Assembly (NCBI RefSeq): GCF_000009705.1
Contig: NC_003240.1
Coordinates: 30,001-62,000 of the forward strand
DNA: 32,000 nt
Source: Nostoc sp. PCC 7120 = FACHB-418
Lineage (GTDB): Bacteria > Cyanobacteriota > Cyanobacteriia > Cyanobacteriales > Nostocaceae
Reading direction: 5' to 3'
The notes under the pieces: generated by a model
The model's input: only the letters and a program-made list of their open reading frames with translations
Told to the model about the DNA's origin: nothing
Database searches by the model: none
Made by a program: the position numbers and the translations under genes
In this document: positions 17,701 to 30,151 of the stretch, piece after piece
Layout of the letters: each line of letters opens with the position of its first letter
How positions within the stretch are numbered: the stretch's first letter is position 1

Positions 17701-20421
17701 ATGAACCAGCCTGAATGGTTAGAAGCAAACAAGCAGGTTTATTCCAAAGAACATGGTGTTATACATATCGCCGCCATCATTGAGAAAAACCTTTACTTTA
17801 AAAAAGGCAGTTTAAATCAAATTATTTTCGACTGGGAGCATGAGGTAAATAGTGGTAATTTATTACCTCTAAACCAAGCACCAACAGGTAAAAGCATTCT
17901 CTACCAAGAGATAGCTGCTATACTTGATGGATCGGGAAAATTACAAAGCTGCGAAGTAATTCCTGCTCAAGAAGCTAAACTTTATCCCATCCCAGATGAT
18001 ATTCACCCTCTAGTTAAACTGGCTTTAAGTAAGTCAGGAATCACCCAACTATACTCTCATCAAGTGGAGGCATGGCAAGCTTACAAAAAAGGAAAAGATA
18101 TAATTCTCCAAACTCCTACTAGCAGTGGTAAAAGTATCTCTTTTCTCATTCCAATCATTCACGAGTGTCTAAAGGGTAAATCAGCTTTAGTATTCTTTAA
18201 CTTGAAAGCACTTGCATTTGACCAGGTAGAGAAAATACGTTCCTTTGTTAGCCACTTAGATGAAAATATTCGCCCCCAAATTCTCAATATTAATGGAGAT
18301 ATTCCTCCACAAGAGCGCAAACTACTTTACAGCAATCAACCCTCAATTTTATGCGTGACTCCTGATGTATGGAACCACGAGCTAAACAACTACCAATTCG
18401 ATTCAAATTGGGGATTTAGAGAAACAATCAGAAAACTTTCAATCATTGTCTGTGACGAAATGCACTTTTATCAAGGCATATTTGGTTCGCATTTTGCACT
18501 ACTTAATCGGCGAACTCAACTTATGATAGAATCTGTCGGCAATGATATTTCCAAATTACAGTACATCTTCGCTTCTGCAACAATTAGTAACAGCAGTGAA
18601 ATTGCCCAGAAGATATCTAATCGAGAAGAACAAAGTAATCTTGCTATTATTGACCAAAGTGGGGCAAAACGCTCGGAGATTACTTTTATTAGCCTCAAAC
18701 CACGGAACAATACATTTTACCAAACTGCCCAATTCGCAGCTATGCTCGTAAGTAAAGGCATCGTCGGGATTTGTTTCTGCGATAGTAGAGAACTAGTTAA
18801 GGTTTTAACTAATGCCATCCGTAAAGCTTTAATCGAGATGCAACTGCCCCATCTGGGAGAAAGCATCTCAGCATTTTATGGGAGCATGAAGGCAAATCAG
18901 CGTAACAAAATTATTGCAGATATACAAAGCGGGAAGGTCAAGTTCATTATATCTACAAGTGCTTTGGAAGCGGGTCTAGATATTGGGTGTATTGATGCAA
19001 CTATCGTACATAGTTACCCCGGCTCAATTCTTGCCTTTCGCCAGAGGGCAGGACGTGCGGGGAGGCAGGAAGCAGGACTATTGGTGTTTATTCCGTCGAA
19101 AAGGTCGATTATGGATTCTTACTACGCCAATTACCCAGAACGCCTTTTATCTGATCCTCCAGAAATTATCAACTTTAACCACAATTATGAAACAACTTTA
19201 GAGCAGCATATTCTCGCTTGTTGCAAGGAAAGTAAACCGACACAGGCTCAAATTGCCCGACATTTTGGTAGTTCTGGTAATGCGATCGCCCGACAGTTAA
19301 TCGGTAATAATCAACTGATCTTCAGCTACAATCAAAGACTGACAACTAATCGAAATCTCGGTTATGTCCATTCAAAAATTAAAGTTAGAGGCAACACCAA
19401 TCAAAACATCAGTTATATTAATCAAGATAGCGCAGAAGAGTTTGAGGAAAGTTCGGCATCTTCTGCACTAAGAGAAGTTTACCCTGGTGCCATATATCTT
19501 GCTCAAGATTTTGATGGCAATCCCGTACAGTATAAATCACAAGAGCTAAATTTAACCGAAGGGAAAGCAATTCTCAAGCCAATAGAGGCAACCAATTTAT
19601 TTAGTCGTCCTGAAGGAAGTCTAAATTTCGAGGAAATTAAAATTGTTGGGGAAGCCAAAATTATCAATCTTCCCCAAGGGGCTGCTAGATTTACACCTGT
19701 TTCAGCCAAAATCAAAGAAGAAATTTATGGCTACAACTTGTACAGGCTGGAACAAAAATGGACTTGCACTAATAACAGATGTCGCAACTTCAATTTAAAT
19801 TTAACTGGGCATTTACAAACTTGCCCTGCTTGTAAAATCCAACTGATTGAACGAGAATTTGTCGAACTATTGGAGGAAAATAAATACGAAGAATCACTTG
19901 CTCTTAACTACAATACATTCTGCGTCAGGGTTGAAATTAACGCTGATGCACGAAAATATTTTTCAGTTTTGGTCAAAAATCACAGAAAAGAAATACTTAA
20001 TAAACAGAAATATATTACCAATGAGGAGAAACAACTATTTGAAAGCAATGAAACCCAAATTTGCGTTCATACTCTCGCTCATCACCTTATACTCAGTTTA
20101 CCACTTGTCGAACATGGAGCAAACAGTCGAGATATAGATTTCATGTTAGTAGAAGTGCCGTCTAATACTAAGATAGTTGGCTATTTCTTTGATACTTGTG
20201 AACATGGTACAGGTATGTGTGATACCCTCATCAAGTATTTAGAGACTGCCTTTATTAAGGCAAAGTTCCTAGTCGATAATTGTCCTTGTAAATACGGCTG
20301 CTCTTCTTGTACAACAATTCAACGCTGTCCTGATGATAACGAAGCACTGTTTAAATCAGTTGGGTTATCTCTACTAAAGGAAATAATCAATCCAATAGAG
20401 ACAAGAACTATTAATCAATAG
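17701..20421 (+). CDS. DEAD/DEAH-box (SF2) helicase with internal Zn-ribbon and C-terminal DUF1998/MZB domain (MrfA/YprA/DrmB-like architecture)
   Basis: Motif I QTPTSSGKS, motif II CDEMH, motif III SATISN, motif V STSALEAGLDIG and motif VI FRQRAGRAGR are all present. There is a Zn-ribbon CTNNRC...CPAC. The C-terminal HTLAHHL...YFFDTCEHGTGMC...CPCKYGCSSCTTIQRCPDDNEAL is typical of DUF1998. Confidence 0.85.
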   Translation: MNQPEWLEANKQVYSKEHGVIHIAAIIEKNLYFKKGSLNQIIFDWEHEVNSGNLLPLNQAPTGKSILYQEIAAILDGSGKLQSCEVIPAQEAKLYPIPDDIHPLVKLALSKSGITQLYSHQVEAWQAYKKGKDIILQTPTSSGKSISFLIPIIHECLKGKSALVFFNLKALAFDQVEKIRSFVSHLDENIRPQILNINGDIPPQERKLLYSNQPSILCVTPDVWNHELNNYQFDSNWGFRETIRKLSIIVCDEMHFYQGIFGSHFALLNRRTQLMIESVGNDISKLQYIFASATISNSSEIAQKISNREEQSNLAIIDQSGAKRSEITFISLKPRNNTFYQTAQFAAMLVSKGIVGICFCDSRELVKVLTNAIRKALIEMQLPHLGESISAFYGSMKANQRNKIIADIQSGKVKFIISTSALEAGLDIGCIDATIVHSYPGSILAFRQRAGRAGRQEAGLLVFIPSKRSIMDSYYANYPERLLSDPPEIINFNHNYETTLEQHILACCKESKPTQAQIARHFGSSGNAIARQLIGNNQLIFSYNQRLTTNRNLGYVHSKIKVRGNTNQNISYINQDSAEEFEESSASSALREVYPGAIYLAQDFDGNPVQYKSQELNLTEGKAILKPIEATNLFSRPEGSLNFEEIKIVGEAKIINLPQGAARFTPVSAKIKEEIYGYNLYRLEQKWTCTNNRCRNFNLNLTGHLQTCPACKIQLIEREFVELLEENKYEESLALNYNTFCVRVEINADARKYFSVLVKNHRKEILNKQKYITNEEKQLFESNETQICVHTLAHHLILSLPLVEHGANSRDIDFMLVEVPSNTKIVGYFFDTCEHGTGMCDTLIKYLETAFIKAKFLVDNCPCKYGCSSCTTIQRCPDDNEALFKSVGLSLLKEIINPIETRTINQ

Positions 20422-20476: not shown

Positions 20477-20526
20477 TACATCGCTTACGCACAAGATTGA
20501 TGAAAGTTTTGAGAATAAGCGATGTA
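20477..20526 (+). promoter_or_regulatory. 11-bp perfect inverted repeat whose right arm contains the ATG of the 20522 gene
   Basis: TACATCGCTTA (20477-20487) pairs with TAAGCGATGTA (20516-20526), separated by a 28-nt spacer. Confidence 0.4.
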
Positions 20527-21268
20527 CGTCGAACTATTAGCTGATTCACATCCAAACCCTAAAAAATTTCAAATTATTCACGCACCATCATTTTTACTTA
20601 CAGAAACAAATTTTCAAATAGGAGATTTTGTCGAGTCGAACAATATTGATTTTATTATCAATCATGCTGTAAATCTAGGGTATCAGGTGAAAATATCTCA
20701 TCCTGAAACTCAACAATATAATAAATATCCTCTTCCCAAAATCAGTGATGAACTAGCCGATTTGATAATTAATTATCCATCAGACTTAACACTGCGAACT
20801 AATGGGATGGTTTTTGAACAAAGGGCATATTTAATGTCTAAAGTTTACGATGAAGTGTGCCAAAACCTTGAATCAAAAGCTCTTTTAAGAGAAGCTGAGT
20901 ATTGGCTGATAAATTACGCACGAGAAGTAATTGCCAAACAATGTCATTACTTACCAGATATCCTAATAAAATTAGATAACCCAACTGTGAGAGCAATGGC
21001 AATAGATACACTCATGCTCTGGCAACCAGATTGGAACAAGGCTATCTCTCAATATAGAGGAAGTAGATTTGAGGCTGGCAATAATGAGTTTGAGGTTATC
21101 AGCTACTATCACAATCAAAAAAAGAAGGGGAGGGAGGGAATAATGGTACTGTGCAAGGTAACAAAAACCATGAATAACTATCTTGAATTTCCTACCTTTC
21201 CTTGCAATGCAAACTGTACTCTTGGGACTTATCAAGTCGAAAATGCACTTAACCAAAGGTTGGCTTAA
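20522..21268 (+). CDS. hypothetical protein (248 aa)
   Basis: Clean ORF between the helicase terminator and the next gene. No family recognised. Confidence 0.55.
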   Translation: MYVELLADSHPNPKKFQIIHAPSFLLTETNFQIGDFVESNNIDFIINHAVNLGYQVKISHPETQQYNKYPLPKISDELADLIINYPSDLTLRTNGMVFEQRAYLMSKVYDEVCQNLESKALLREAEYWLINYAREVIAKQCHYLPDILIKLDNPTVRAMAIDTLMLWQPDWNKAISQYRGSRFEAGNNEFEVISYYHNQKKKGREGIMVLCKVTKTMNNYLEFPTFPCNANCTLGTYQVENALNQRLA

Positions 21269-21296
21269 AACATAATCACCATCTGAAATATTAATT

Positions 21297-21521
21297 ATGG
21301 ACGAGCAACAAATCAACTATTTCATAACAGGTATTTGTACATTTCACTGGAATGCTGATTTTTATAAATTCTGTCAAGTCTGCAACTTTGACCCTAACCA
21401 CACCTATTCAAAAGAGAAATGGCAGCAGTGGCAACAATTTGTATCCGGTATTAAAGCGTTTGACCACAATACACTTGTTAAGCTACTTGAAGCTGGCCAT
21501 CAATTAGCACGACAGTCATAA
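21297..21521 (+). CDS. small hypothetical protein (74 aa), Cys/His/Trp-rich
   Basis: ORF with an ATG start in an otherwise non-coding gap. No family recognised. Confidence 0.4.
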   Translation: MDEQQINYFITGICTFHWNADFYKFCQVCNFDPNHTYSKEKWQQWQQFVSGIKAFDHNTLVKLLEAGHQLARQS

Positions 21522-21550: not shown

Positions 21551-21595
21551 CGTGCATGAATTATCGAAGTAATTAGCCACATGAATTCATGCACG
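21551..21595 (+). promoter_or_regulatory. 12-bp perfect inverted repeat whose right arm contains the Prim-Pol start codon
   Basis: CGTGCATGAATT (21551-21562) pairs with AATTCATGCACG (21584-21595). The right arm is also part of the local palindrome CATGAATTCATG. The ATG is at 21589. Confidence 0.45.
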
Positions 21596-22587
21596 CCCAA
21601 ATCCGTCATTTGGTATCTTCGCTTGACAACCTACCCGAAGAATGGCGAATCGTCCCTACCTTTGGTAAACGTCCTTTAGGAAAAGAATGGGAAAAAAATA
21701 CTTACTCTCCCAAAGAACTACAAACTGAACTTGTCCGCCGCCGATTAAAATTTTGGACAAATAACAGACTTATCACACCCACTGGTGTAGCCTTGGTTTG
21801 CGGTTTCAATCATCCTCAAGGGTACTTAGTAGCTATTGACTGCGATGGGGAAACATCCTGGCGACACATCATCCAAATTAACGAACACCTAGAACCAAAA
21901 GAACTTAACCAGCTAACACCCGCCGAAACACGCGATACTCCTATGGAGTCGTTACACGATCGCGCTCAAAAATACCTTCCTCCCACAATTGCATTTACCT
22001 CTGGGAGGAAATATCGCAGCCAACGCTTATACCTCATTCCCAAATCAAAAGCTTGGGAAGTAAAATCTCGCAAAATCAAAACTGGAAAGGACGAACACCT
22101 GGAATTTCGAGGCAAAAACCTAGCTTCAATCCTTCCCCCGTCCTTTCATCCAGAAGGTAGAAATTACAGATGGCTTCCCGGCTGTAGTCCATCTGAACGC
22201 CAAATAGAAATAGCTCCCGATTGGGTAATTGCCCAAATGCTTGCCAAACAGGAGAAAACAAGAAAGTTTAACCTACTCAAAGAAAAATATAACCGCAGAT
22301 ATGGGGTAGACAGGTACGCTCATTTAATTCCCTCAATAGAATCCAATATTCAAACCGCACTTGTGCTACTCGAAGTTATCCACCCTCGGTTTGCAGATGA
22401 TTACCATTCGTGGATTCAAGTCGGGATGGCACTCAAGAGTGTTAGTCCCATTTTATTTAAAGCATGGGACACCTGGAGCCAACTTTCTCCTAAGTACAAA
22501 CCAGGCGAATGCGCCTACAAATGGCAGTCTTTCAAAAAGACAGGTATTACTATCCGCACCTTATTTAGATTAGCCAATCTCTCTTAA
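21589..22587 (+). CDS. bifunctional DNA primase/polymerase (Prim-Pol, AEP family) with PriCT-2 C-terminal domain; likely plasmid replication initiator/primase
   Basis: Catalytic VAIDCDGE (DxD) and LPPSFHPEGRNYRW (the conserved sxH..G..Y.W block). The C-terminal YHSWIQVGMALKS...WDTWSQ...YKPGECAYKWQSF fits PriCT-2. Confidence 0.8.
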   Translation: MHAQIRHLVSSLDNLPEEWRIVPTFGKRPLGKEWEKNTYSPKELQTELVRRRLKFWTNNRLITPTGVALVCGFNHPQGYLVAIDCDGETSWRHIIQINEHLEPKELNQLTPAETRDTPMESLHDRAQKYLPPTIAFTSGRKYRSQRLYLIPKSKAWEVKSRKIKTGKDEHLEFRGKNLASILPPSFHPEGRNYRWLPGCSPSERQIEIAPDWVIAQMLAKQEKTRKFNLLKEKYNRRYGVDRYAHLIPSIESNIQTALVLLEVIHPRFADDYHSWIQVGMALKSVSPILFKAWDTWSQLSPKYKPGECAYKWQSFKKTGITIRTLFRLANLS

Positions 22588-22589
22588 TC

Positions 22590-23072
22590 ATGAGTAATAA
22601 AACATCACCTGACAAGAATGTAACTGGCTTTGAAGATAACTATAGCAGTAAACATCTTAATCCTGATATTCAGGACTATTTAAATTTAGAAGAAACATTA
22701 GATGAATCAGTAAATACTGAAGTTACAAGTCAAGATTCATCTAGCGGGATAACTTTAACCAAAACCGCCATAATAACAATTCAGTTAACACCAAATTCTG
22801 AAAAAGCAATTATCTCAATTGGAATTCAAGATGCACCTCCGATTATTAAGATAATTCCTCTAGCTGAGATTAAATCTCAGCCTATTATAAATAACTGGCT
22901 AAATGATTTAGAAAAATCTCTTCCACAAATGTTAAATATCTGCAAACAAAGGATGGTAAAGCAGGCTACAGAGCAGAATCAACAAGAACAATCCAGACAA
23001 GTACAAAAGCGTAACCTACCTGAAGATAAAGATAAAAAACCTGCGCCTAACAACCAACTGTCACTATTTTAA
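22590..23072 (+). CDS. PRTRC protein E-like hypothetical protein ending in beta-clamp-binding consensus QLSLF
   Basis: Starts 2 nt after the primase stop. Central block AIITIQLTPNSEKAIISIGIQDAPPIIKIIPL, a basic/Gln-rich tail, and the C-terminus NNQLSLF* (nt 23055-23072). Confidence 0.55.
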   Translation: MSNKTSPDKNVTGFEDNYSSKHLNPDIQDYLNLEETLDESVNTEVTSQDSSSGITLTKTAIITIQLTPNSEKAIISIGIQDAPPIIKIIPLAEIKSQPIINNWLNDLEKSLPQMLNICKQRMVKQATEQNQQEQSRQVQKRNLPEDKDKKPAPNNQLSLF

Positions 23073-23077
23073 TTACC

Positions 23078-23500
23078 ATGAAGTACATTGCTATTATCGA
23101 AGGGCAAGAAATTCCTCTTGATGAGGCGATCGCCCAGGATGACAATACACTCAAAACAGCGATTAGCGTCTACTTTCCAGAGTATGCTAATGCCGAAATT
23201 GAACGACAAACAACTGATGATACAGTTTCAATTCGTTTGGTAAAAAAGGCAGGTACTAAGGGAAATAAATTTAGAGAATTGAAAAACTGTTTTGAAGAAA
23301 TAAATCCTGCACTAAAGTTAGGATGGCAGATAAAGCTTTTAGAGATAAACAGTCAAATTAGTCTCGAAAGTTTAATTACTTTACAACCTGAGATAGATAA
23401 AGCTATCAAGCTCGGTCAATCTTGGGAAACCTATAGCGAAAAAGTTGCTCAAAGCCTTAAACAGCAACCTGCTATTACGAGTAAATATCCTGTAGTTTAA
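23078..23500 (+). CDS. prokaryotic ubiquitin-like (Prok_Ub / PRTRC protein C-like) beta-grasp domain with ~78-aa C-terminal extension
   Basis: The first 62 aa are MKYIAIIEGQEIPLDEAIAQDDNTLKTAISVYFPEYANAEIERQTTDDTVSIRLVKKAGTKG. These match the remembered PRTRC_C pattern (..YPE...A.I......v.Y.F....GTKG). The ORF then continues for another 78 aa. Confidence 0.6.
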   Translation: MKYIAIIEGQEIPLDEAIAQDDNTLKTAISVYFPEYANAEIERQTTDDTVSIRLVKKAGTKGNKFRELKNCFEEINPALKLGWQIKLLEINSQISLESLITLQPEIDKAIKLGQSWETYSEKVAQSLKQQPAITSKYPVV

Positions 23501-23543
23501 TCACAAATTTATGGCCGCTATAATTCGTAGCGGCTGATTAATT

Positions 23544-24272
23544 ATGCTTGGCAACATCCACTCATTCAAAATACCCATTACTTGTATAACAGCAATTAAT
23601 TATCTAGAAAATCTTTCCGAACAAGTAAATATTTTAAGCCTGTATCAAAAATTATTTCCAGAAAAATGGTTAGAATCAACTATTCCTATTAATAAACAAT
23701 CACATCCATCAAGTGCTTACCTAGATAGAGAAATTGAATTTATTAACCTAGTGAATGAAAATCTATTCCCAGTAGAATATATCGATGAAATCGAGTTTAA
23801 TTCTGAACGTGATAGTATTCTAGTTTCGCCACAAAGACTTGAGTGGTGGAATGAAGATTTTGAAGAACTGGTATACTCGGAGAAGTTCCTACTGTCATTG
23901 ATGGGGCAAGGGTACAATATCAGCCAATGGAAACTAAATTTTGGTTTTACTCCTGATTACATTGCTCCAGCAGAAGAAATTTACTTCGAGAAATTCGTAA
24001 AGCTGTGTCGTCGTTACAAAAATCCCCTGCAATATTTAGATATAGCCATACAAATTATAGATTACTCAACTGAAAATATTTGGCTAGATATTACGTGTGA
24101 AACAAGCGATTGGCTGGACTGGACTTATGAGAATATCGTATTTCTCGCTCAAAAGTGGCAAGAAGCCGTCTCGATGATGGAGAAATCAAATGAGGTTAGC
24201 CATTTGTTAGAAACATCTCTTTCTGCTCGAAAAGCAGCAGTAAAAATTTGGAACCAAGCATCAAAAGCATGA
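23544..24272 (+). CDS. hypothetical protein in the position of PRTRC protein F
   Basis: 242-aa acidic ORF. Its stop overlaps the start of the E2-like gene (ATGA at 24269-24272). A hairpin GCCGCTA-N7-TAGCGGC lies just upstream at 23514-23534. No motif recognised. Confidence 0.5.
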   Translation: MLGNIHSFKIPITCITAINYLENLSEQVNILSLYQKLFPEKWLESTIPINKQSHPSSAYLDREIEFINLVNENLFPVEYIDEIEFNSERDSILVSPQRLEWWNEDFEELVYSEKFLLSLMGQGYNISQWKLNFGFTPDYIAPAEEIYFEKFVKLCRRYKNPLQYLDIAIQIIDYSTENIWLDITCETSDWLDWTYENIVFLAQKWQEAVSMMEKSNEVSHLLETSLSARKAAVKIWNQASKA

Positions 24273-24991
24273 ATGTAGATACAAATATATTACCAATAAT
24301 TAACTTAGAAAATATCTCCCAAATTCTGCTAGCCAATATTCCCCAAGATGATTTACTAGGGCAGTTAATTATCCTCAAAGGACAGTTTATTTTAGTCGAA
24401 CGCGAAGGCAAAGAGTCTAAATACAAATTCTTGTCTCCTGAAGCAGTAGAGAAAGCCTTCACAAGTAAAACTGCCGCATCTGGATGGCTTTCTAGCAACA
24501 CAATTTGGTGGGGTAAAAATCCAGAGGGAGAGGCCATTATTCAGTTTTACTCTCCCCAAAAATATCAAATTCAAATTATGGGACAGGAAACTGAAGTAAT
24601 TACTGTCCCTATGCCTGCATTCCTATTTGCTGGATGCGGTAGTAGATATTACCTGTGGGCAGTTAAAGGGAGGGTATTTAAACCAGACGCACAACTGTAC
24701 AAGCCCCCTCTACCTAACGTTTGGGAAGATTCTAGCATTTGCTTTGGGGGAAATTCTCTCAGTATGTGCAGTGCTGCAACCATAAGCCAAGTTTGGGATC
24801 TGTTCTGGAAATCACCTTTTAACAAGGACTTATCTCAAGGCAAGTCAAAAACTCATCCTGATAATATCTGCAATCAACTAATCAAATTACACGAATCTAA
24901 AGCTAAATCCTACCCTTCAAGTGACCTTGTTCCCGTTCATAGCTGGAAAGTCACAACCCCAGAAGACATTATCAATCATTTGTTCAGTTAA
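24269..24991 (+). CDS. E2/UBC-like protein (PRTRC protein B-like), candidate catalytic Cys in PPLPNVWEDSSICFGGN
   Basis: ATG at 24269 overlaps the upstream TGA (the ORF track gives TTG at 24248). Motif LPNV-x6-IC resembles the E2 HPN...C active-site spacing. The Cys codon is at 24740-24742. Confidence 0.5.
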   Translation: MNVDTNILPIINLENISQILLANIPQDDLLGQLIILKGQFILVEREGKESKYKFLSPEAVEKAFTSKTAASGWLSSNTIWWGKNPEGEAIIQFYSPQKYQIQIMGQETEVITVPMPAFLFAGCGSRYYLWAVKGRVFKPDAQLYKPPLPNVWEDSSICFGGNSLSMCSAATISQVWDLFWKSPFNKDLSQGKSKTHPDNICNQLIKLHESKAKSYPSSDLVPVHSWKVTTPEDIINHLFS

Positions 24992-24993
24992 CA

Positions 24994-25590
24994 ATGAATC
25001 CTTTTATCGGCTATCACCTCGCTACAAGTAATAACTTTCCTCCCTACAGTCAAAAACTCCAGGAATACTGGCTGGCAGCAAATGGGCTTTTCTTGCGATC
25101 GCATCGTCGCGAGTTAGAGGTTTGCTTGCAACTGTCTCAAACTCAAGTTGCTGGACTCCAACCCCTTGAACCCTACTTCCGTCTGAAAGTCCCAAAAGTT
25201 CCTTGCCAAGCGATCGCCGAGATTATCAATGCTGCTAGTATCAACCCCCAACAGGAAATCCTATTCTACTTGGGAGTGACAAACGACCAATGGTGGTGTC
25301 ACACACCACTGCAAACTGCGTCCTCTACTCACGTCTTATCTTTAGAAAGCGCACTTGATAAAAGCTATACAGATGGCTTGGTAGAAATGCACAGTCATGG
25401 AACTCTAGCTGCTTATCCTTCAAGTGCAGACAATCAGGAAGAAAAAGGCAAATTTCGAGTGTTCGCAATCATTGGCACGCTGAATAACATTCCCACAATT
25501 TATACCCGCATCGGGATATACAATCACTTTTTCGACATCAACCCCAATCAAATATTTGAACTGCCCCCACAGGTAAAATGCTTGAATTAA
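24994..25590 (+). CDS. JAB/MPN (JAMM) metallopeptidase (PRTRC protein A-like)
   Basis: Perfect JAMM motif HSHGTLAAYPSSAD (HxHx7Sx2D, nt 25390-25431). An upstream Glu candidate lies in QQEILFY. Confidence 0.8.
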   Translation: MNPFIGYHLATSNNFPPYSQKLQEYWLAANGLFLRSHRRELEVCLQLSQTQVAGLQPLEPYFRLKVPKVPCQAIAEIINAASINPQQEILFYLGVTNDQWWCHTPLQTASSTHVLSLESALDKSYTDGLVEMHSHGTLAAYPSSADNQEEKGKFRVFAIIGTLNNIPTIYTRIGIYNHFFDINPNQIFELPPQVKCLN

Positions 25591-26369
25591 CTACTTACCA
25601 ACAAGCTTTACCCGTCTTACCTCGCAATCATACTCGTATCAACTTTGTTTTAGTGGGAGTAGGAGGAACAGGCGGGTTTCTTGCAGAAGATTTATGTCGA
25701 ATTATTCTGCAACTCCAGCGCACTAGGAAAGAAATTAACTTTGCGATCGTTGATGGCGATACTGTCGAACTCAAAAATATCAGCCGCCAAAATTATCAAC
25801 AAGCTGAAATTGGACTACCAAAGGCAGAAACACTGGCTGCAAGATGCAGTGCCAAGTATGGAATAGAGATTACAGCCGTTTGCGACTGGTTTGAAGAAGA
25901 CATGATTCGCACAGCCAGTTGGTGGAATACCCTAACGGTAATTATTGGCTGTGTAGATAACAGCACAGCCAGGAGCAAAATTCACTCTGTTCTCAAAATC
26001 AACAGTGCAAATGAGCCAGCATCTCTATTTTGGCTGGATTGTGGAAACAGCAACTACTCTGGACAAGTAGTAATTGGAACGCACTCTAATTTTGATATAG
26101 TCCAAGCTTCCAATAACCCAGACAAACCTCAATTCTGGTTGCATCTTCCCTCCCCGGTGCTGGTTCACCCAGAACTGCTACTTCCTCAGCCAGAAGAACT
26201 TAGCGACAACAATCTTTCATGTGCAGAAATCCAAGCACGGAATTATCAATCACTATTCGTCAATAAAATGACGAGTGCGATCACAGCCCAGTATCTACTA
26301 GAATTAACCCTCACTGGGGGGTTGAAAAAGTTCGCTAGTACACCTCGGCGTAAATCAGCAGACCATTAA
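25578..26369 (+). CDS. ThiF/MoeB/E1-like adenylyltransferase (PRTRC ThiF-like), 3' end disrupted by IS insertion at 26337/26338
   Basis: Rossmann loop LVGVGGTGGF, then VDGDTVELKNISRQNY and GCVDNSTARSKI. The last 9 codons (TPRRKSADH*) are IS-derived. The native 31-codon tail is found at 28982-29079. Confidence 0.8.
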   Translation: MLELTTYQQALPVLPRNHTRINFVLVGVGGTGGFLAEDLCRIILQLQRTRKEINFAIVDGDTVELKNISRQNYQQAEIGLPKAETLAARCSAKYGIEITAVCDWFEEDMIRTASWWNTLTVIIGCVDNSTARSKIHSVLKINSANEPASLFWLDCGNSNYSGQVVIGTHSNFDIVQASNNPDKPQFWLHLPSPVLVHPELLLPQPEELSDNNLSCAEIQARNYQSLFVNKMTSAITAQYLLELTLTGGLKKFASTPRRKSADH

Positions 26370-26427
26370 ATAGCCAAAACTTTGCCCTTATATGTCCACT
26401 TAAAAGGTTTAGCCATTGTTTTATTAA
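26366..26427 (-). pseudogene. displaced last 19 codons of the IS630 transposase (NKTMAKPFKWTYKGKVLAI*)
   Basis: Translated by hand from the minus strand. It is contiguous with FIDYF once 26428-27743 is removed. Confidence 0.75.
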
Positions 26428-27740
26428 GAGAACTGCACAGAATGATTGATCCTATGATCAGAGAAAGATAATTTCAGTGTGCAGCCTACCTCATGTCTCC
26501 AAAATCTATCATTCAACTCACAGAGAACCTAAAATCTCTTTACATCAAAACAGCGAAAAAACTCAAGGGAAGCGACCGACGACAATTCATGGCAGAAGTG
26601 GTCAAAGGTTTGGGAATTGGTGGACAGACTTTAGTAGAACGCGAGTTGGGATGGAATAGGCGTACTATCCGTAAAGGGATGCAGGAGTTGGAGAGTGGCA
26701 AGCCTTTTATTGATGGTTTTGAGCGTAGTGGACGTAAGCGGGTGGAAACAAAATTACCAAACTTGTTGGAGGATATTAAATCGTTAGTAGACCCACAAAC
26801 TCAAACTGACCCCAGTTTTAAGAGTACACGCTTATATACACGCATGACGGCAAGTGTTGTACGTCGTCAACTAATTGAACAATTTGGTTACAGTGACAAA
26901 GAACTACCTTCATCAGAGACAATTCGACGACGATTGAATGATTTGGGTTATACCTTAAAACGAGTTCTGAAAACCAAGCCTATCAAGAAGATTCCAGAAA
27001 CAGAAGCCATTTTTGAACAAGTCGAGCAAATTAATACTGAAGCTGATAATGACCCTCATACTCTCCGGATCTCCATTGATGCGAAGGTGGCAGTCAAGAT
27101 TGGAGAGTTTGACCGAGGTGGTAAAACTCGAATCCCAACTACCTCATTAGACCACGACTTTCCGACCGAGATGACTCTGATTCCCTACGGCATTTTTATA
27201 CCTGAGTACAACGAGTTATTTTTATTTTTCGTTTCTTCCAAATTAACTGCTGATTGTATTGTTGACTTGCTTGAAAGCTGGTGGCAAAATGTCAAACACC
27301 GATTTGCTCATATTCAAAAACTGGTAATTAATCAAGATAATGGACCGGAAAATCATTCTCGTCGCACTCAGTTTATGAAGCGGGTTGTAGATTTTAGCAC
27401 ATCATCTCAACTGACGTTACAACTTGCTTATTATCCGCCGTATCATAGCAAATACAACCCAATAGAACGTTGCTTTGGTTGGTTAGAACAGCATTGGAAT
27501 GGTAGTTTACTTGACACCGTTGAGACCGTACTGAATTTCGCCCAAACTCTCACATTTAAGGGTAAAAATCCGGTTGTCACACTGGTAGAAAAAGTTTACT
27601 CCACAGGAGTTAAACTTACAACTTCAGCTATGGAAGAAATTGAAACCCAGATTAACCGCCTCCCCAATCTCAAAAAATGGTTTGTGGAAATTTTTGCTAA
27701 ACCAGCATAGCTATTGGATCATCTTTTTTGTGGAGTTCTC
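26428..27740 (+). mobile_element. ISAzo13-family insertion sequence nested inside the IS630 transposase gene, TAA target duplication
   Basis: Ends are GAGAACTGCACA (26428-) and TGTGGAGTTCTC (-27740). TAA sits at 26425-27 and 27741-43. Removing the element restores the IS630 ORF ...FIDYF|NKTMAKPFKWTYKGKVLAI*. Confidence 0.8.
26493..27710 (+). CDS. ISAzo13-family DDE transposase
   Basis: 405-aa intact ORF. The N-terminal region ([36 protein letters not shown]) and the DDE region (ISIDAK...[11 protein letters not shown]...[17 protein letters not shown]) fit the family as I remember it. Confidence 0.8.
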
Positions 27741-28365
27741 TAAAGTAGTCAATAAATTTGAGGATTCGATTTTTCAAATCATCTTGACTGAGGAAACTGG
27801 CTCTTCTGAGTAACTTGCGAACCAAAATACTGAACCAAATCTCAATTTGATTGAGCCACGAAGAATGTTTGGGTGTGTAATGAAACACAATTCGGTGTGC
27901 TGGGTCACTCAAAAAAGTAGTGCGGGATTTCATTGATTTAAGGATACCACTTTCTCCCTTTATACCCAGGTCAAGATTCAAACCTTCTTTTTCTGCAACT
28001 AAACGAACTAGAGACTCAGACTGATGAGTGTTCAAGCAGTCCATAATGAGATGCCATTTTTTAGCCTGGGTATCAGTTTCAATTGTTCGACGAATATGAA
28101 GAGCAAAATCAATTTCTGTTCTGGTATCTGAACAAGTCGGCTCGACAATTTGACCTGTGGCAACATCGAAGCTGGCAATTAAGCTTTGTGTACCGTGACG
28201 AATATACTCAAATTCCCTTCTTTCGACTTTGCCTGGTCGCATTGGCAAGTCTTTTTCTAATCGCTCAGTAGCTTGAATACCTGTCATTTCATCAATCGAT
28301 ATTGTCCGTTCCCCCTTTATATGACGTTCGATTGCACTGATGTATAAACCAGTAATATCTTCCAC
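27697..28365 (-). pseudogene. IS630-family transposase, DDE catalytic part (orfB), C-terminus replaced by the ISAzo13 junction
   Basis: DDE_3-type blocks [11 protein letters not shown] and [12 protein letters not shown]...[19 protein letters not shown] are present. Homology stops at FIDYF (~27744), and the following [14 protein letters not shown] is read from the ISAzo13 end. Confidence 0.75.
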
Positions 28366-28913
28366 CTTTGCATCAAATTCTTCATCTTGAGGGGGGGGGT
28401 TAACCAGTAGCGGCTCTGGTGGGGTTTAAGTTCTGCTTCTTCAAGTAATCTTCCCAGATGGCGAATAGATATGCTTTCAATAATTCCTTGTTTGATGATT
28501 TCGTCCGTTAGTTCTCTTACCGTCCAATGACTTATTGGTCTTCCGTAATCGGATGGTGGAGAACAAGCTAATGCAAACAACTCGATTACTTGTTCCATAC
28601 TAAACTTTGGGCGTGCGCCAACACGCTCAGAGTCTTGTAATCTTTGCTCAATTAATAATTCTTTCCCCTCAGTTTCTAACCATCGGTTTCGCCATAAACG
28701 CGCCGTTTGCCGATTGACATCTAAATTTCGGGCAATTTCACGATGATTTTGACCCTCTGATGCCATGAGAATTATTTTGGCTCGTAGTGCTATCTGTTGC
28801 GGCGTGTTGTGTCTGTTTATCAACTTTTGGAGTTGATCTCGTTCGCCATCGCTTAAATTTAATATTTTAGGAGTTAATCTAGCCACACCCTGATTCCTTG
28901 ATCCGTAACCCAA
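28317..28913 (-). pseudogene. IS630-family transposase, N-terminal HTH part (orfA)
   Basis: Contains the helix-turn-helix / homeodomain-like regions typical of IS630/Tc1. It ends just after a C9 tract (plus-strand G9 at 28390-28398), where the reading frame shifts. Confidence 0.75.
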
Positions 28914-28981
28914 AACGGGTTTTAACTTGATTATTTATTCTCCCACCAATATGGTCTGTTTATTTACGCCGACCTGTACTA

Positions 28982-29079
28982 GTTATTTTGACCTCACAGC
29001 AATGTCAACCCGAAGTTTATATACAAGCATTGACCAACTCAAAAAATACTATATTCTGCAAACAAATTACCACAAATAG
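28982..29079 (+). other. displaced native 3' end of the ThiF/E1-like gene (…S)YFDLTAMSTRSLYTSIDQLKKYYILQTNYHK*
   Basis: This segment is in frame with 25578-26337 after in-silico excision of 26338-28981. The restored ORF would be 285 aa. Confidence 0.7.
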
Positions 29080-29123
29080 CTTACGCAAATATATCCCAAA
29101 AACTAAATTTGGGATATATTTTT

Positions 29124-29807: not shown

Positions 29808-30151
29808 ATCCAACAGAATTAAATATCACGAAAATCGAACTCACTCCTAACAGTGGTTGGACGCTCAATATTCTCTCGCGTCGGGTAGCGACTATTACCG
29901 ACCCCTTGGGAAATAGAAAAACCAGCTATTTCGGGTTCGATACCAAAGAACAAGCCGAAAAGTTTAGAGATTGGCTTGTCAGAAAAAACAAATGTAGTAG
30001 TGCAGTTATCCGTCACTCAGAACGATTAGCTACTGAATGGGAGGTAAAAGCTTGGAATGTTCCAACCTCCCTAATTCTTGAATGCGCCGTCAAAGATTTA
30101 AAGGAATCAAGCAATGCAACTATCTCTACTAAATCTACCCTACAACGATGA
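29804..30151 (+). CDS. hypothetical protein (115 aa)
   Basis: ATG overlaps the upstream stop (ATGA at 29804-29807). No family recognised. Confidence 0.5.
   Translation: MNPTELNITKIELTPNSGWTLNILSRRVATITDPLGNRKTSYFGFDTKEQAEKFRDWLVRKNKCSSAVIRHSERLATEWEVKAWNVPTSLILECAVKDLKESSNATISTKSTLQR

What the first reader, a model, noticed from the sequence alone, without database searches (positions are those of the whole stretch)
21589..26369. Plasmid-borne ubiquitin-like conjugation cassette (Ubl, E2-like, JAB, E1-like; PRTRC-type) coupled to a Prim-Pol replication gene in a cyanobacterial element
Six co-directional ORFs (22590-26369) follow the primase. Gaps are 2-43 nt or the ORFs overlap (ATGA at 24269-24272; a 13-nt overlap at 25578-25590). 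Four things are seen directly. (i) 23078-23500 starts with a 62-aa segment ending ...VYFPEYANAEIERQ..VSIRLVKKAGTKG, which is the prokaryotic ubiquitin / PRTRC protein C pattern. (ii) 24269-24991 carries LPNVWEDSSICFGGN, reminiscent of the E2 HPN-to-Cys active site. (iii) 24994-25590 has a perfect JAMM motif HSHGTLAAYPSSAD. (iv) 25578-26369 has GVGGTGG, DGDTVELKNISRQ and CVDNSTAR, the ThiF/MoeB/E1 adenylation signature. Gene sizes and order (E-like, C, F-like, B, A, ThiF) parallel the proteobacterial PRTRC (ParB-related, ThiF-related) cassette defined only computationally (TIGRFAM PRTRC models; Iyer/Burroughs/Aravind Prok_Ub, Prok-E2 and Prok-JAB families). To my knowledge the function of that cassette is unknown. 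Here the ParB position is occupied by a Prim-Pol primase and the host is cyanobacterial. Related E1/E2/JAB modules (CBASS Cap2/Cap3, Bil) act in phage defence. A replication-linked plasmid version could instead tag replication, partition or host defence proteins during establishment. That functional idea is inference.
Basis: partly seen in the sequence, partly recalled or inferred. Interest (0 to 1): 0.85.

Follow-up and report, generated by a model that had tools for sequence, protein, structure and literature searches.

The report
Plasmid ubiquitin-like tagging cassette, clamp-linked
A cyanobacterial conjugative plasmid carries a real but untested ubiquitin-like protein-tagging operon of a type first described computationally in 2006; one of its small proteins ends in a textbook DNA-sliding-clamp-binding motif, and this copy's activating enzyme gene is broken by a transposon.

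Summary
Pfam recognises Prim-Pol+PriCT_2, Prok-E2_D (1.7e-47), Prok-JAB and ThiF. The proposed Ubl gets no HMM hit, but profile-profile comparison links its first 64 residues to PRTRC protein C/Prok_Ub (E 1.4e-6; shuffled null max 14.3 vs 37.5), and an AF2 model shows a β-grasp-like core.

Gene order matches canonical PRTRC (pHG1: ParB-E-C-F-B-A-ThiF), with Prim-Pol in the ParB slot. The "E-like" and "F-like" genes are positional analogues only; no homology was detectable.

Three points appear new:
1. The Ubl is made as a precursor, G-T-K-G followed by a 78-aa tail.
2. The upstream protein ends in QL[STKN]LF, the β-clamp-binding consensus, in all 54 loci. The only other ORFs ending this way are the plasmids' polymerase.
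3. p4 belongs to a large family with no Pfam match.

The operon class is not new. Iyer et al. 2006 (row 6d) already list Anabaena variabilis, whose plasmid C carries this cassette at 96% identity. The window's E1 is truncated by a 2.64-kb IS block. Function is still untested; a replisome or establishment role is inferred.

The parts
17701..20421 (+). DEAD/DEAH helicase with C-terminal MrfA-type Zn-binding (MZB) domain. Conserved upstream neighbour of the cassette.
   Evidence: Pfam DEAD 2.4e-24, Helicase_C 5.7e-19, MZB 5.5e-09. Syntenic in Nostocales loci. pHG1 PRTRC also has a helicase-related gene upstream.
20522..21521 (+). Two conserved hypothetical genes (248 aa at 20522-21268; 74 aa at 21297-21521) between the helicase and Prim-Pol.
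   Evidence: No family hits. The 248-aa gene is syntenic in the Nostocales-type loci (42-98% identity); the 74-aa gene was not detected in about a third of them, including all of the ~55-65%-identity clade.
21589..22587 (+). Prim-Pol (AEP) primase-polymerase with a PriCT-2 domain. Occupies the slot held by ParB in canonical PRTRC.
   Evidence: Pfam Prim-Pol 3.6e-25 and PriCT_2 7.6e-24. PHROG DNA primase 6.2e-23. A 2-nt gap separates it from the next gene. Position compared with pHG1.
22590..23072 (+). p2: 160-aa protein with a small conserved core, a low-complexity linker and a C-terminal tip. Positional analogue of PRTRC-E; proposed β-clamp-binding adaptor.
   Evidence: No HMM hit. hhalign versus the PRTRC-E slot gives E 0.15. 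The only invariant columns in 14 diverse orthologues are Q156, L159 and F160.
23055..23069 (+). QLSLF-COOH: consensus β-sliding-clamp-binding motif at the extreme C-terminus of p2.
   Evidence: Of 1555 ORFs of at least 80 aa, 56 end in QLxLF. 54 of these are the p2-slot gene of 54 sequences (the window and 53 loci). The other 2 are the plasmids' PolA-like/exonuclease gene. The consensus is QL[S/D]LF or QxxLF (PMC12309361).
23078..23263 (+). Ubl domain of p3 (residues 1-62), ending in K-A-G-T-K-G. Homologous to the PRTRC-C slot proteins, which Pfam calls Prok_Ub where checked.
   Evidence: hhalign versus 8 PRTRC-C slot proteins: Prob 90.5, E 1.4e-6, score 37.5, against a shuffled null of 8.6±1.9 (max 14.3). 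The AF2 model has a ββαββ core with block-mean pLDDT 75-84 over residues 1-50. The Foldseek hits aligned to this domain are β-grasp/UBL proteins but are not significant.
23264..23500 (+). C-terminal 78-aa extension of p3: a disordered linker followed by three helices. Predicted propeptide, removed after G62.
   Evidence: AF2: residues 59-72 have pLDDT below 50, and helices span 77-128. A tail of 78-97 aa is present in all 13 full-length family members. Six of 8 canonical PRTRC-C proteins end exactly at the aligned Gly.
23514..23534 (+). Conserved palindrome or hairpin, GCCGCTA-N7-TAGCGGC, in the only sizeable intergenic gap of the cassette.
   Evidence: Found by the terminator-like scan. The stem is invariant in 8 loci while the loop and flanks vary. 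It is unique in the window, with 0 expected by chance.
23544..24272 (+). p4: 242-aa predicted α-helical protein of a large family with no Pfam match. Positional analogue of PRTRC-F (alpha-hel2); proposed specificity or E3-like factor.
   Evidence: 435 cluster representatives at E<=1e-3. 0 of 57 members hit Pfam. No similarity to PRTRC-F or the Manganitrophus F-slot protein. P39 and D182 are invariant; E63, E65, T176 and W193 are nearly so. The AF2 model is unusable, pLDDT 44.
24269..24991 (+). E2-like protein (Prok-E2 family D). The catalytic Cys158 codon is at 24740-24742, within L-P-N-x7-C-F-G.
   Evidence: Pfam Prok-E2_D 1.7e-47. PRTRC_B 66.3 bits, below the 131.45 cut-off. P147, N150, C158 and G160 are invariant in 15/15.
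24994..25590 (+). JAB/JAMM metallopeptidase with an N-terminal JAB-N-like region. E88 codon at 25255-25257; H-S-H-x7-S-x2-D at 25390-25431.
   Evidence: Pfam Prok-JAB 7.4e-12; weak DUF2016 hit at residues 14-52; PRTRC_A 44.9 bits, below the 101.8 cut-off. JAMM residues are invariant in 11/11.
25578..26339 (+). E1-like ThiF-family adenylating enzyme, native codons 1-254. Includes GxGGxG (25656-25673), D127 and the invariant S214-C215 (Cys codon 26220-26222).
   Evidence: Pfam ThiF 3.1e-17. PRTRC_ThiF 125.4 bits, below the 144.75 cut-off. Collinear with the intact 285-aa E1 of relatives up to 26339. Invariant residues.
26340..28980 (.). 2.64-kb IS block inserted in the E1 3' end. It carries an ISAzo13-family transposase (26493-27710, +) and an IS630-like transposase in two ORFs (28913-27697, -). 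It has ~27-bp imperfect terminal inverted repeats and sits in a CTAG target with a TA duplication. It adds 9 foreign codons plus a stop (to 26369).
   Evidence: ISAzo13 1.5e-109 and DDE_Tnp_ISAZ013 1.5e-99. Junctions mapped by blastn against L001 and by alignment. No PLSDB plasmid shares the junction.
28981..29079 (+). Displaced 3' remnant of the E1 gene (last ~31 codons plus stop).
   Evidence: Window 28981-29232 aligns to nt 760-1011 of the stretch of L001 that starts at the E1 start codon (the 858-nt E1 gene plus downstream sequence), at 97% identity. The ORF ending at 29079 reads ...SYFDLTAMSTRSLYTSIDQLKKYYILQTNYHK.
29109..31169 (+). Conserved downstream neighbours: 232-aa and 115-aa hypothetical proteins and a gene that RefSeq calls a type I R-M subunit M in relatives. 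DUF5895, dnaN, dnaX, exonuclease/PolA-like and holA follow in relatives.
   Evidence: Synteny. Annotation of L001 and L002. Replisome genes mapped.

Best explanation
This is a divergent cyanobacterial/Chloroflexi clade of the PRTRC operon class (Iyer 2006 'type 6d'). It is a self-contained ubiquitin-like protein-conjugation module carried in the transfer and replication backbone of large conjugative plasmids.

**Proposed mechanism.**
1. p3 is translated as a pro-Ubl: a β-grasp domain, then ...K-A-G-T-K-G62, then a 78-aa helical propeptide.
2. The JAMM peptidase cuts after G62 to expose the C-terminal glycine, and later reverses conjugates.
3. The single-domain ThiF-type E1 adenylates that glycine. 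It probably also forms a thioester on the invariant Cys215.
4. The Ubl passes to Cys158 of the Prok-E2_D protein and then to lysines of target proteins. The conserved α-helical p4 probably helps as a specificity or E3-like factor.
5. p2 is a small protein whose only invariant feature is a C-terminal QLSLF. It tethers the machinery, or presents its target, at the β sliding clamp. The system therefore acts on the plasmid's replisome or on newly primed DNA, for example during establishment after transfer, alongside the co-transcribed Prim-Pol and helicase.

**Shown versus inferred.**
- Shown here: the domain identities, the catalytic residues, the Ubl homology and precursor architecture, the synteny, the motif conservation and the IS break.
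- Inferred: cleavage at G62, thioester relay, p4's role, clamp binding and the biological purpose.

In this window the E1 has lost its last 31 residues to an IS insertion, so this copy is probably inactive.
For: **Enzymes.** Curated HMM hits. Invariant catalytic residues across cyanobacterial and PRTRC-labelled loci.

**Ubl.** hhalign to the PRTRC-C slot proteins gives E 1.4e-6, score 37.5, versus a null maximum of 14.3. The β-grasp-like core has block-mean pLDDT 75-84 and the linker around G62 is disordered. The Foldseek hits aligned to that domain are UBL/β-grasp proteins, including the bacterial Ubl 8tyx_A.

**Processing.** Six of 8 canonical PRTRC-C proteins end exactly at the aligned Gly. 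The two with tails sit in loci that have a JAB gene, and the four loci without a JAB all have free-Gly Ubls. All 13 full-length p3 homologues carry 78-97-aa tails, and a JAB gene follows the E2 in the window, in the seven diverged loci aligned, and by tblastn in every other locus that extends past the E2.

**Operon.** Gaps or overlaps are at most 5 nt apart from one 43-nt gap. The order p2-p3-p4-E2-JAB-E1 is conserved down to 29-38% identity in Chloroflexi, and it parallels pHG1's E-C-F-B-A-ThiF.

**Clamp link.** QL[STKN]LF-COOH is found in the p2 slot of 54 sequences (the window and 53 loci). Q156, L159 and F160 are the only invariant columns in p2. Among 1555 ORFs the only other ones with this ending are the plasmids' own PolA-like/exonuclease. 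The motif equals the published CBM consensus and the PolC C-terminal CBM.

**Replication and transfer context.** Prim-Pol and a helicase lie upstream. DUF5895, dnaN, dnaX, exonuclease/PolA and holA lie downstream. In Leptolyngbya the cassette sits between dnaN and holA. It sits next to a relaxase in L060 and L069. T4SS and T4CP genes are in the window.
Against: - No biochemical data exist for any PRTRC or 6d system.
- The Ubl fails the Pfam and NCBIfam models directly. Its Foldseek matches are not significant (best E 0.085).
- Clamp binding rests on a five-residue motif only. Canonical PRTRC-E proteins mostly lack it; the 8 C-termini seen include only ...ASLF...FNLFA and ...ASLL as near-matches. 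So the clamp link may be clade-specific, or the motif may bind another partner.
- p4 has no fold assignment.
- Prim-Pol and dnaN linkage is absent in several distant loci.
- The E1 is a short ThiF/MoeB-type enzyme without a separate CYS domain, so a thioester on C215 is assumed, not shown.
- This copy's E1 is truncated.
Confidence: 0.55

Rival explanations
1. Anti-defence or establishment effector. The cassette is expressed early in the recipient and tags host defence or SOS proteins, or protects plasmid proteins, rather than acting on the replisome. The QLSLF tip is incidental or recruits something else.
For: The cassette sits beside relaxase/Gp157 in L060 and L069 and between the T4SS/T4CP module and a gene RefSeq calls a type I R-M M subunit, with no cognate R or S subunit gene annotated in the stretch examined. 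Orphan methylases and other establishment genes are typical of plasmid leading regions (PMC11541004). PRTRC loci neighbour ParB, PAPS-reductase-family, DUF932 and Ref-nuclease genes.
Against: oriT and transfer polarity were not determined here. The leading-region survey does not mention ubiquitin or JAB. The absolute conservation of a clamp-binding consensus on p2 is not explained by this reading.
Confidence: 0.2
2. Anti-phage or anti-MGE defence system carried by the plasmid. It would work like Bil or CBASS Cap2/Cap3, with the Ubl conjugated to invader proteins.
For: The E1 weakly resembles CBASS E1-E2 fusions in PADLOC (1.5e-08 and weaker) and a 6A-MBL Cap2 model. The upstream helicase resembles BrxH, DrmA and DruE helicases. 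AbiEii is adjacent in L069. The experimentally characterised bacterial Ubl systems described in the papers read here (type II CBASS, Bil) act in anti-phage immunity; the functions of other operon families are stated to be unknown.
Against: No PADLOC model hits the E2, JAB, p2 or p4. The single hit to p3 is a CRISPR 'accessory' candidate. The cassette keeps a fixed position in the plasmid backbone across relatives of 55-97% identity, rather than sitting in a variable island. It is translationally coupled to Prim-Pol, or to ParB in PRTRC. No effector or sensor gene is evident.
Confidence: 0.15
3. ThiS/MoaD-type sulfur-carrier pathway. The E1 adenylates the small protein for thiocarboxylate formation, not for protein conjugation.
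For: The E1 is a short single-domain ThiF/MoeB-like enzyme. ThiF and MoeB models hit it weakly (3.3e-10 to 6e-05).
Against: A dedicated E2 with invariant Cys and a JAMM peptidase are always present. No rhodanese, sulfurtransferase or cofactor-biosynthesis genes are in the neighbourhood. The setting is a mobile element.
Confidence: 0.03
4. In this particular window the cassette is a decaying relic. The IS insertion has inactivated the E1, so nothing is conjugated in this strain.
For: The E1 loses 31 C-terminal residues, including a segment (F-A-x-Y-F...) conserved across the cyanobacterial loci, and gains 9 foreign residues. Other relatives have IS hits in the same module: the helicase is split by IS701 in PCC 7712, and Prim-Pol is interrupted by ISKra4 in PCC 7601.
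Against: All adenylation and Cys motifs lie upstream of the break. The other six genes are intact and 87-99% identical to relatives. The allele is private, hence recent. Class-level function is unaffected.
Confidence: 0.6

Closest known systems
PRTRC system (TIGRFAM/NCBIfam 'ParB-related, ThiF-related cassette'), equal to Iyer/Burroughs/Aravind 2006 operon type 6d. Exemplar: Cupriavidus necator pHG1.
   Same: Same gene order and similar sizes: [DNA-binding/processing gene]-E-C-F-B-A-ThiF. The E2 is Pfam Prok-E2_D. The JAB and E1 have PRTRC_A and PRTRC_ThiF as their best NCBIfam models. The Ubl is homologous to the PRTRC-C slot proteins, with the G-x-K-G motif in register. Both are on conjugative plasmids or ICEs. 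Iyer 2006 already lists Anabaena variabilis and PCC 7120 under 6d.
   Different: All three NCBIfam scores are below their curated cut-offs. ParB is replaced by Prim-Pol. The E-slot and F-slot proteins show no detectable homology to PRTRC_E or alpha-hel2. The Ubl carries a 78-aa C-terminal propeptide instead of ending at Gly. The E-slot protein ends in a β-clamp-binding consensus. The E2 lacks the His after the Cys (K186 at that position), and the JAB-N Trp is not conserved.
Bil (BilABCD) bacterial ISG15-like/ubiquitination defence system
   Same: It has separate Ubl, E2, JAB-type peptidase and E1 genes, and bona fide conjugation has been shown for it (10.1101/2023.09.26.559546). The bacterial Ubl-DUB structure 8tyx_A is among the nearest Foldseek neighbours of the p3 model (prob 0.80).
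   Different: The Bil E1 has tandem inactive and active adenylation domains plus a mobile CYS domain, and carries a Pfam Prok-E2_C region. The E1 here is a 285-aa single-domain enzyme. The E2 is family D. Bil has no p2 or p4 equivalents, and it is a defence system rather than part of a plasmid backbone.
Type II CBASS Cap2/Cap3
   Same: E1, E2 and JAB chemistry in bacteria. There are weak E1 similarities to PADLOC E1-E2 models.
   Different: Cap2 is an E2-E1 fusion that conjugates the CD-NTase. No CD-NTase or effector is present here, whereas a dedicated Ubl is.
β-clamp-binding proteins with C-terminal CBMs (e.g. PolC QLSLF-COOH; consensus QL[S/D]LF or QxxLF)
   Same: p2 ends in exactly QLSLF after a disordered linker. 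The plasmid's own PolA-like enzyme ends the same way.
   Different: p2 has no recognisable polymerase or repair domain. Binding is untested.
Eukaryotic PCNA ubiquitylation/SUMOylation (Rad6-Rad18, Ubc9); analogy only, from general knowledge
   Same: A Ubl-conjugation machinery physically coupled to the sliding clamp.
   Different: There is no homology of the adaptors. Clamp modification here is pure hypothesis.
ThiS-ThiF / MoaD-MoeB sulfur carriers
   Same: A β-grasp protein with a C-terminal Gly, activated by a single-domain ThiF-type E1.
   Different: The presence of an E2 and a JAB, the mobile-element context, and the absence of sulfur-transfer partners.

Membership tests
PRTRC system (NCBIfam/TIGRFAM) | ThiF-family E1 scoring above the TIGR03736 trusted cut-off (144.75 bits) | tested here: not met
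   125.4 bits, E 2.2e-36. It is by far the best E1 model but falls below the cut-off.
PRTRC system (NCBIfam/TIGRFAM) | PRTRC_B E2-like protein (TIGR03737, cut-off 131.45) | tested here: not met
   66.3 bits. However, Pfam Prok-E2_D scores 161.7 bits against a cut-off of 25.
PRTRC system (NCBIfam/TIGRFAM) | PRTRC_A JAB protein (TIGR03735, cut-off 101.8) | tested here: not met
   44.9 bits. Pfam Prok-JAB scores 45.6 bits against a cut-off of 25.
PRTRC system (NCBIfam/TIGRFAM) | PRTRC_C / Prok_Ub small Ubl ending in Gly | tested here: inconclusive
   No HMMER hit to TIGR03738 or PF14454. Profile-profile homology gives E 1.4e-6 with the Gly motif in register. The Gly is internal here, followed by a 78-aa tail.
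PRTRC system (NCBIfam/TIGRFAM) | PRTRC_E protein (TIGR03741/PF19556) | tested here: not met
   No hit. hhalign E 0.15. The slot is positional only.
PRTRC system (NCBIfam/TIGRFAM) | PRTRC_F / alpha-hel2 protein (PF14456) | tested here: not met
   No hit for p4 or for 57 family members. hhalign E 0.57-0.59.
PRTRC system (NCBIfam/TIGRFAM) | Adjacent PRTRC ParB-family gene | tested here: not met
   Prim-Pol+PriCT_2 occupies the slot.
PRTRC system (NCBIfam/TIGRFAM) | Gene order E-C-F-B-A-ThiF on a mobile element | tested here: met
   The order is the same as in pHG1, Rhizorhabdus and Manganitrophus. The setting is a conjugative plasmid.
Iyer et al. 2006 operon type 6d | [quoted passage not shown] | tested here: met
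   All five are present. The paper lists 'Avar' and 'Ana'.
Iyer et al. 2006 operon type 6d | E2 with an 'absolutely conserved histidine' C-terminal to the Cys | tested here: not met
   At the position of pHG1's S-A-F-T-H the window has S-P-F-N-K (K186). No His is invariant in the 15-sequence alignment.
Iyer et al. 2006 operon type 6d | JAB-N domain with conserved Arg and Trp | tested here: inconclusive
   There is a weak DUF2016 hit at residues 14-52 (E 0.015). An Arg is roughly conserved, but the Trp seen in the PRTRC sequences is not conserved in the cyanobacterial ones.
Pfam Prok-E2_D (PF14460) | Score above the gathering threshold, with the catalytic Cys | tested here: met
   161.7 bits against 25. 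C158 is invariant.
JAMM/MPN+ metallopeptidases | E...H-x-H-x7-S-x2-D active site | tested here: met
   E88, H133, H135, S143 and D146 are invariant in 11/11.
β-clamp-binding proteins | QL[S/D]LF or QxxLF motif in an accessible region | tested here: met
   QLSLF-COOH follows a low-complexity linker and is conserved in the p2 slot of 54 sequences (the window and 53 loci).
β-clamp-binding proteins | Physical binding to DnaN | not testable with these tools
   This needs a pull-down or fluorescence-polarisation assay, or a complex prediction.
Bil system | E1 with IAD+AAD+CYS architecture and a Prok-E2_C region | tested here: not met
   The E1 is 285 aa with a single ThiF domain.
Type II CBASS | CD-NTase plus Cap2 E2-E1 fusion | tested here: not met
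   E2 and E1 are separate genes, and no CD-NTase is in the window.

The most novel reading that the evidence does not exclude
The cassette is a clamp-directed ubiquitin-like system. p2 docks on the β sliding clamp through its QLSLF tip. The E1/E2/p4 machinery then conjugates the processed Ubl to the clamp itself or to clamp-bound replisome or repair proteins, and JAB reverses the modification. That would make it a bacterial, plasmid-encoded functional analogue of PCNA ubiquitylation/SUMOylation. The plasmid would use it to switch polymerases or to license its own Prim-Pol-primed replication during establishment.
Probability: 0.2. Interest if true: 0.9.

Novelty: new variant of a known kind. 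Interest (0 to 1): 0.55.

Why it matters
PRTRC/type-6d cassettes are widespread on conjugative plasmids and ICEs. They have been annotated since 2006, but no paper reporting a tested function was found in the library searched. The cyanobacterial/Chloroflexi variant offers three concrete, testable handles that the canonical form does not make obvious.

1. **A defined processing site.** The pro-Ubl has a specific site (after G62) that a JAB cleavage assay can test directly.
2. **A candidate cellular address.** The β sliding clamp is suggested by an invariant consensus motif, and the plasmid's own polymerase ending in the same motif serves as an internal control.
3. **A large unannotated family.** p4, with at least 435 clusters, replaces alpha-hel2 in the specificity slot.

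If the clamp link holds, it would show that coupling Ubl conjugation to the sliding clamp is not a eukaryotic invention. It would also give a first function to a whole class of mobile-element operons. If it fails, the locus is still a clean, compact model: six genes, with intact copies in culturable Anabaena and Tolypothrix strains, suitable for bacterial E1-E2-JAB biochemistry outside the defence context.

Tried and rejected
- **Direct HMM identification of p2, p3 and p4.** Pfam, NCBIfam and PHROGs gave nothing meaningful. The PADLOC 'C3a152 Type III-C specific' hit to p3 (1.9e-22) was set aside. It is a CRISPR-accessory candidate family with no mechanistic content, probably built from these same cyanobacterial plasmid genes.
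- **Foldseek of the p3 model against the PDB.** No match reached E<=1e-3. I used it only as weak fold-class support.
- **AF2 of p4.** Mean pLDDT was 44, so the model is unusable. I ran no further search on it.
- **Homology of p2 to PRTRC-E and of p4 to PRTRC-F.** Negative by hhalign, including with the 57-sequence p4 profile and the Pfam scan of the family.
- **PDB sequence searches.** p2, p4 and the E2 profile gave nothing credible. The E1 gave only marginal ThiF-fold hits.
- **Promoter and terminator scan.** Counts were not above the shuffled expectation. Only the conserved 23514-23534 palindrome was kept, as an observation.
- **RNA-structure reading of that palindrome.** The stem is invariant, so there is no covariation evidence. 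Left open.
- **Sulfur-carrier interpretation.** Rejected on gene content.
- **CBM as a general property of PRTRC-E.** Not supported by the 8 canonical C-termini examined.
- **Literature.** Searches for experimental work on PRTRC, Prok-E2_D or Prok_Ub found none.

Full report
**1. Observation**

- Prim-Pol, 21589-22587
- p2, 22590-23072
- p3, 23078-23500
- p4, 23544-24272
- E2, 24269-24991
- JAB, 24994-25590
- E1, 25578-26369

The gaps are 2, 5, 43 and 2 nt. There is an ATGA overlap (p4/E2) and a 13-nt overlap (JAB/E1). All quoted peptide motifs are present.

Curated models confirm four of the identities:

| Gene | Pfam model | E-value |
|---|---|---|
| Prim-Pol | Prim-Pol, PriCT_2 | 3.6e-25, 7.6e-24 |
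| E2 | Prok-E2_D | 1.7e-47 |
| JAB | Prok-JAB | 7.4e-12 |
| E1 | ThiF | 3.1e-17 |

In NCBIfam the best models are PRTRC_B (66 bits), PRTRC_A (45 bits) and PRTRC_ThiF (125 bits). Each is below its curated cut-off of 131, 102 and 145 bits respectively. p2, p3 and p4 have no significant Pfam, NCBIfam or PHROG hit.

**2. Replicon and conservation**

The 4.8-kb region is 89-97% identical to ten 215-300-kb conjugative (MOBP/MPF_T) plasmids of Nostoc, Tolypothrix, Trichormus/Anabaena, Scytonema and relatives. The window also encodes TrbI/VirB10 (691-2517) and a VirD4/TraG coupling protein (4910-6736).

In intact relatives the neighbourhood runs as follows:
- upstream: helicase, 248-aa gene, 74-aa gene, Prim-Pol
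- the cassette
- downstream: 227-aa gene, 115-aa gene, a gene annotated as a type I R-M M subunit, DUF5895, dnaN, dnaX, exonuclease/PolA-like, holA

A genome-wide scan with an E2 profile gave 54 loci. tblastn shows the order p2-p3-p4-E2-JAB-E1 in every locus that is long enough. This includes Chroococcidiopsis, Coleofasciculaceae and Floridaenema, and at 29-38% identity Chloroflexi. Prim-Pol is immediately upstream only in Nostocales, Chroococcidiopsis and one Coleofasciculaceae locus. It lies 3.8 kb away in L051 and is absent in L050 and L055 and in L059-L061 and L069.

**3. The E1 gene is broken in this copy**

The window is collinear with the intact 858-nt E1 of relatives up to 26339. It resumes at 28981. 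Between these points lies a 2.64-kb block. It has imperfect terminal inverted repeats of about 27 bp and sits in a CTAG target with a TA duplication. It carries an ISAzo13-family transposase (26493-27710) and an IS630-like transposase on the other strand.

The E1 loses its last 31 residues. This segment is conserved across the cyanobacterial loci. It gains 9 foreign residues instead. No plasmid in PLSDB shares this junction, so the lesion is private and presumably recent. All catalytic motifs lie upstream of the break.

**4. Is p3 a Ubl?**

Yes, by remote homology.

*Family.* The p3 family is narrow. It has 23 close homologues, all cyanobacterial, plus diverged copies in the loci above.

*Structure.* An AF2 model has mean pLDDT 68.8. 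It shows a ββ-α-ββ core over residues 2-55 (block-mean pLDDT 75-84 over residues 1-50). A disordered segment spans 59-72 and includes A-G-T-K-G62. Three helices span 77-128. Foldseek finds nothing significant; the best E is 0.085. The hits that align to this core are β-grasp proteins: ubiquitin/UBL domains, protein L/G and the bacterial Ubl 8tyx_A.

*Decisive evidence.* A profile of 15 p3-slot proteins was aligned to a profile of 8 PRTRC-C slot proteins. This gave Prob 85.6%, E 5.6e-6. The other eight pairings among p2/p3/p4 and E/C/F gave E >= 0.07. Using the N-domain only, the score is 37.5 (E 1.4e-6). For comparison, 100 column shuffles gave 8.6±1.9 with a maximum of 14.3, and the reversed control gave 13.4.

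*Motif register.* The alignment puts p3's L-V-K-K-A-G-T-K-G in register with the C-terminal ...R-A-x-G-T-K-G of PRTRC-C. Pfam calls the two PRTRC-C proteins that were scanned Prok_Ub (pHG1 1.6e-27; Manganitrophus 4.5e-22).

**5. Precursor architecture**

Six of eight canonical PRTRC-C proteins end exactly at that glycine. The two that do not are pHG1 (+5 aa) and Manganitrophus (+64 aa), and both loci have a JAB gene. The four loci with no gene between E2 and E1 all have free-Gly Ubls.

In contrast, all 13 full-length p3-family proteins keep the Gly motif internally, followed by a 78-97-aa tail. A JAB gene follows the E2 in the window and in each of the seven diverged loci aligned, and tblastn finds one in every other locus that extends past the E2. 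I infer that p3 is a pro-Ubl matured by the JAMM peptidase after G62. This follows the logic Iyer et al. proposed for JAB-associated Ubl fusions.

**6. Catalytic competence of the enzymes**

Across the cyanobacterial and PRTRC-labelled loci together, the following are invariant unless a count is given:
- E2: P147, N150, C158, G160 (15/15)
- JAB: E88, H133, S134, H135, S143, D146 (11/11)
- E1 (15 loci): GxGGxG, D59, N67, R70, K82, R89, D127, R132, D154, G156, N157, S214-C215 and Q224 (all 15/15); D61 and Q71 (14/15)

The conserved E1 cysteine suggests an E1 thioester, but this is not shown.

Two features that Iyer et al. gave for type 6d are not kept in the cyanobacterial clade. The window has K186 where PRTRC E2s have a His after the Cys, and the JAB-N Trp is not conserved.

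**7. p2 and the sliding clamp**

p2 has no detectable relationship to PRTRC-E. In 14 orthologues at 16-63% identity, the only invariant columns are Q156, L159 and F160, at the extreme C-terminus after a low-complexity linker of variable length.

I scanned all 1555 ORFs of at least 80 aa, in six frames, in the window and loci L001-L061. Of these, 56 end in QLxLF:
- 54 are the gene immediately upstream of the Ubl, one each in the window and 53 loci. This includes the Chloroflexi loci, where tblastn had not recognised a p2 homologue.
- The other two are the plasmids' own PolA-like/3'-5' exonuclease gene.

QL[S/D]LF (more generally QxxLF) is the published β-clamp-binding consensus, and QLSLF-COOH is the PolC clamp-binding motif (PMC12309361). 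The polymerase acts as an internal positive control. The plasmids encode their own dnaN, dnaX and holA nearby, and in Leptolyngbya the cassette sits between dnaN and holA.

Clamp binding itself is inference. Canonical PRTRC-E tails mostly lack the motif.

**8. p4**

p4 occupies the slot of PRTRC-F (Pfam alpha-hel2, 2e-108 in pHG1), but the two are unrelated at any sensitivity I could reach. An exhaustive HMMER search finds 435 cluster representatives at E <= 1e-3. None of 57 sampled members matches Pfam.

P39 and D182 are invariant. E63, E65, T176 and W193 are nearly so. The AF2 model, built from the shallow alignment, failed with pLDDT 44 and shows mostly helices. A distant member (P0062) again sits just before Prok-E2_D, a 209-aa gene and ThiF, downstream of NikA/MobC-relaxase-Gp157. 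Its role as a specificity or E3-like factor is a guess.

**9. What it most likely does**

The biochemical skeleton is well supported by homology and invariant residues: pro-Ubl, JAB maturation, E1 adenylation, E2 thioester, then a lysine conjugate that JAB can reverse.

The biological address is less certain. Three things favour action at the plasmid replisome or during establishment:
- the fixed position in the transfer and replication backbone
- translational coupling to Prim-Pol (to ParB in PRTRC)
- the clamp-binding tip on p2

An anti-defence role in the recipient and a Bil/CBASS-like defence role remain possible. Neither explains the p2 motif, and PADLOC does not recognise the system. A sulfur-carrier role is excluded by gene content.

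**10. Novelty**

The operon class is known. Iyer et al. 2006 describe it as type 6d and list 'Ana' and 'Avar'. TIGRFAM named the proteobacterial form PRTRC. RefSeq already labels the E2, JAB and E1 on these plasmids.

No experimental study was found. The sequence searches run against the PDB found no solved structure related to p2, p4 or the E2, and only marginal ThiF-fold matches for the E1.

Four things appear new:
- recognition of a distinct clade in which ParB, E and F are replaced by Prim-Pol, p2 and p4
- the pro-Ubl architecture
- the invariant clamp-binding consensus on p2
- the size of the p4 family, which has no Pfam match

I rate it a new variant of a known, uncharacterised kind. Interest is moderate (0.55).

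Noticed in passing
window 23514-23534 (+): The palindrome GCCGCTA-N7-TAGCGGC sits in the 43-nt gap between the Ubl gene and p4. Its stem is invariant in 8 loci, down to ~58% protein identity, while the loop and flanks drift. It is unique in the window. It could be an intra-operon attenuator or mRNA stabiliser that raises p2 and Ubl levels relative to the enzymes, or a protein-binding site. There is no covariation evidence.
   Followed up: partly
window 26340-28980: Nested or composite IS block: an ISAzo13-family transposase (+) and an IS630-like transposase in two ORFs (-). It has ~27-bp imperfect TIRs and a CTAG/TA target. The allele is private, as no PLSDB plasmid shares the junction.
   Followed up: partly
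L002 6720-10833; Tolypothrix PCC 7601 plasmid (H2): Sister plasmids carry independent IS hits in the same module. The helicase is split by IS701 in PCC 7712. Prim-Pol is interrupted by an ISKra4 element in PCC 7601. This suggests frequent IS attrition of the region in culture-collection strains.
   Followed up: no
window 23078-23500: The PADLOC model C3a152 ('Type III-C specific' CRISPR accessory candidate) matches the Ubl precursor at 1.9e-22. That candidate family is probably this plasmid Ubl, picked up by neighbourhood association rather than by a CRISPR function.
   Followed up: no
L001 26985-27920; L002 24726-26543: The plasmid-encoded PolA-like/3'-5' exonuclease protein ends in ...KRQLSLF. 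It is the only other ORF with this ending among the 1555 scanned. This implies that the plasmid replisome uses canonical clamp-binding tips.
   Followed up: partly
L049 1831-3507; L050 1638-3314 and 3362-4249; L051 12219-13868; L055 3964-4569; window 10698-12116: Distant cassette loci repeatedly carry a classic AAA ATPase of about 550-560 aa (PF00004), WGR-domain proteins (one with PARP_reg) and DUF6884 nearby. DUF6884 is also in the window. There may be a functional link between an AAA unfoldase and Ubl-tagged substrates, but this was not examined.
   Followed up: no
L058, L064, L066, L067: Four PRTRC-type loci have no JAB gene between E2 and E1, and in each the Ubl ends in a free Gly. The JAB may therefore be dispensable when no precursor processing is needed.
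   Followed up: partly
L063 5185-5583 (Candidatus Manganitrophus plasmid): A bona fide PRTRC_C (74 bits, above the cut-off) carries a 64-aa C-terminal extension, and its F-slot protein (272 aa) does not match alpha-hel2. This makes it an architectural intermediate between canonical PRTRC and the cyanobacterial clade.
   Followed up: partly
window 15471-16776: The FolD-like gene (one 1191-nt CDS in relatives) appears as two ORFs here: 246 aa at 15471-16211 and 159 aa at 16297-16776. It may be another disrupted gene in this copy.
   Followed up: no
window 691-6736: Conjugation genes TrbI/VirB10 (691-2517) and a VirD4/TraG-type coupling protein (4910-6736) lie upstream, separated from the cassette by about 11 kb of mostly unannotated conserved genes.
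   Followed up: no
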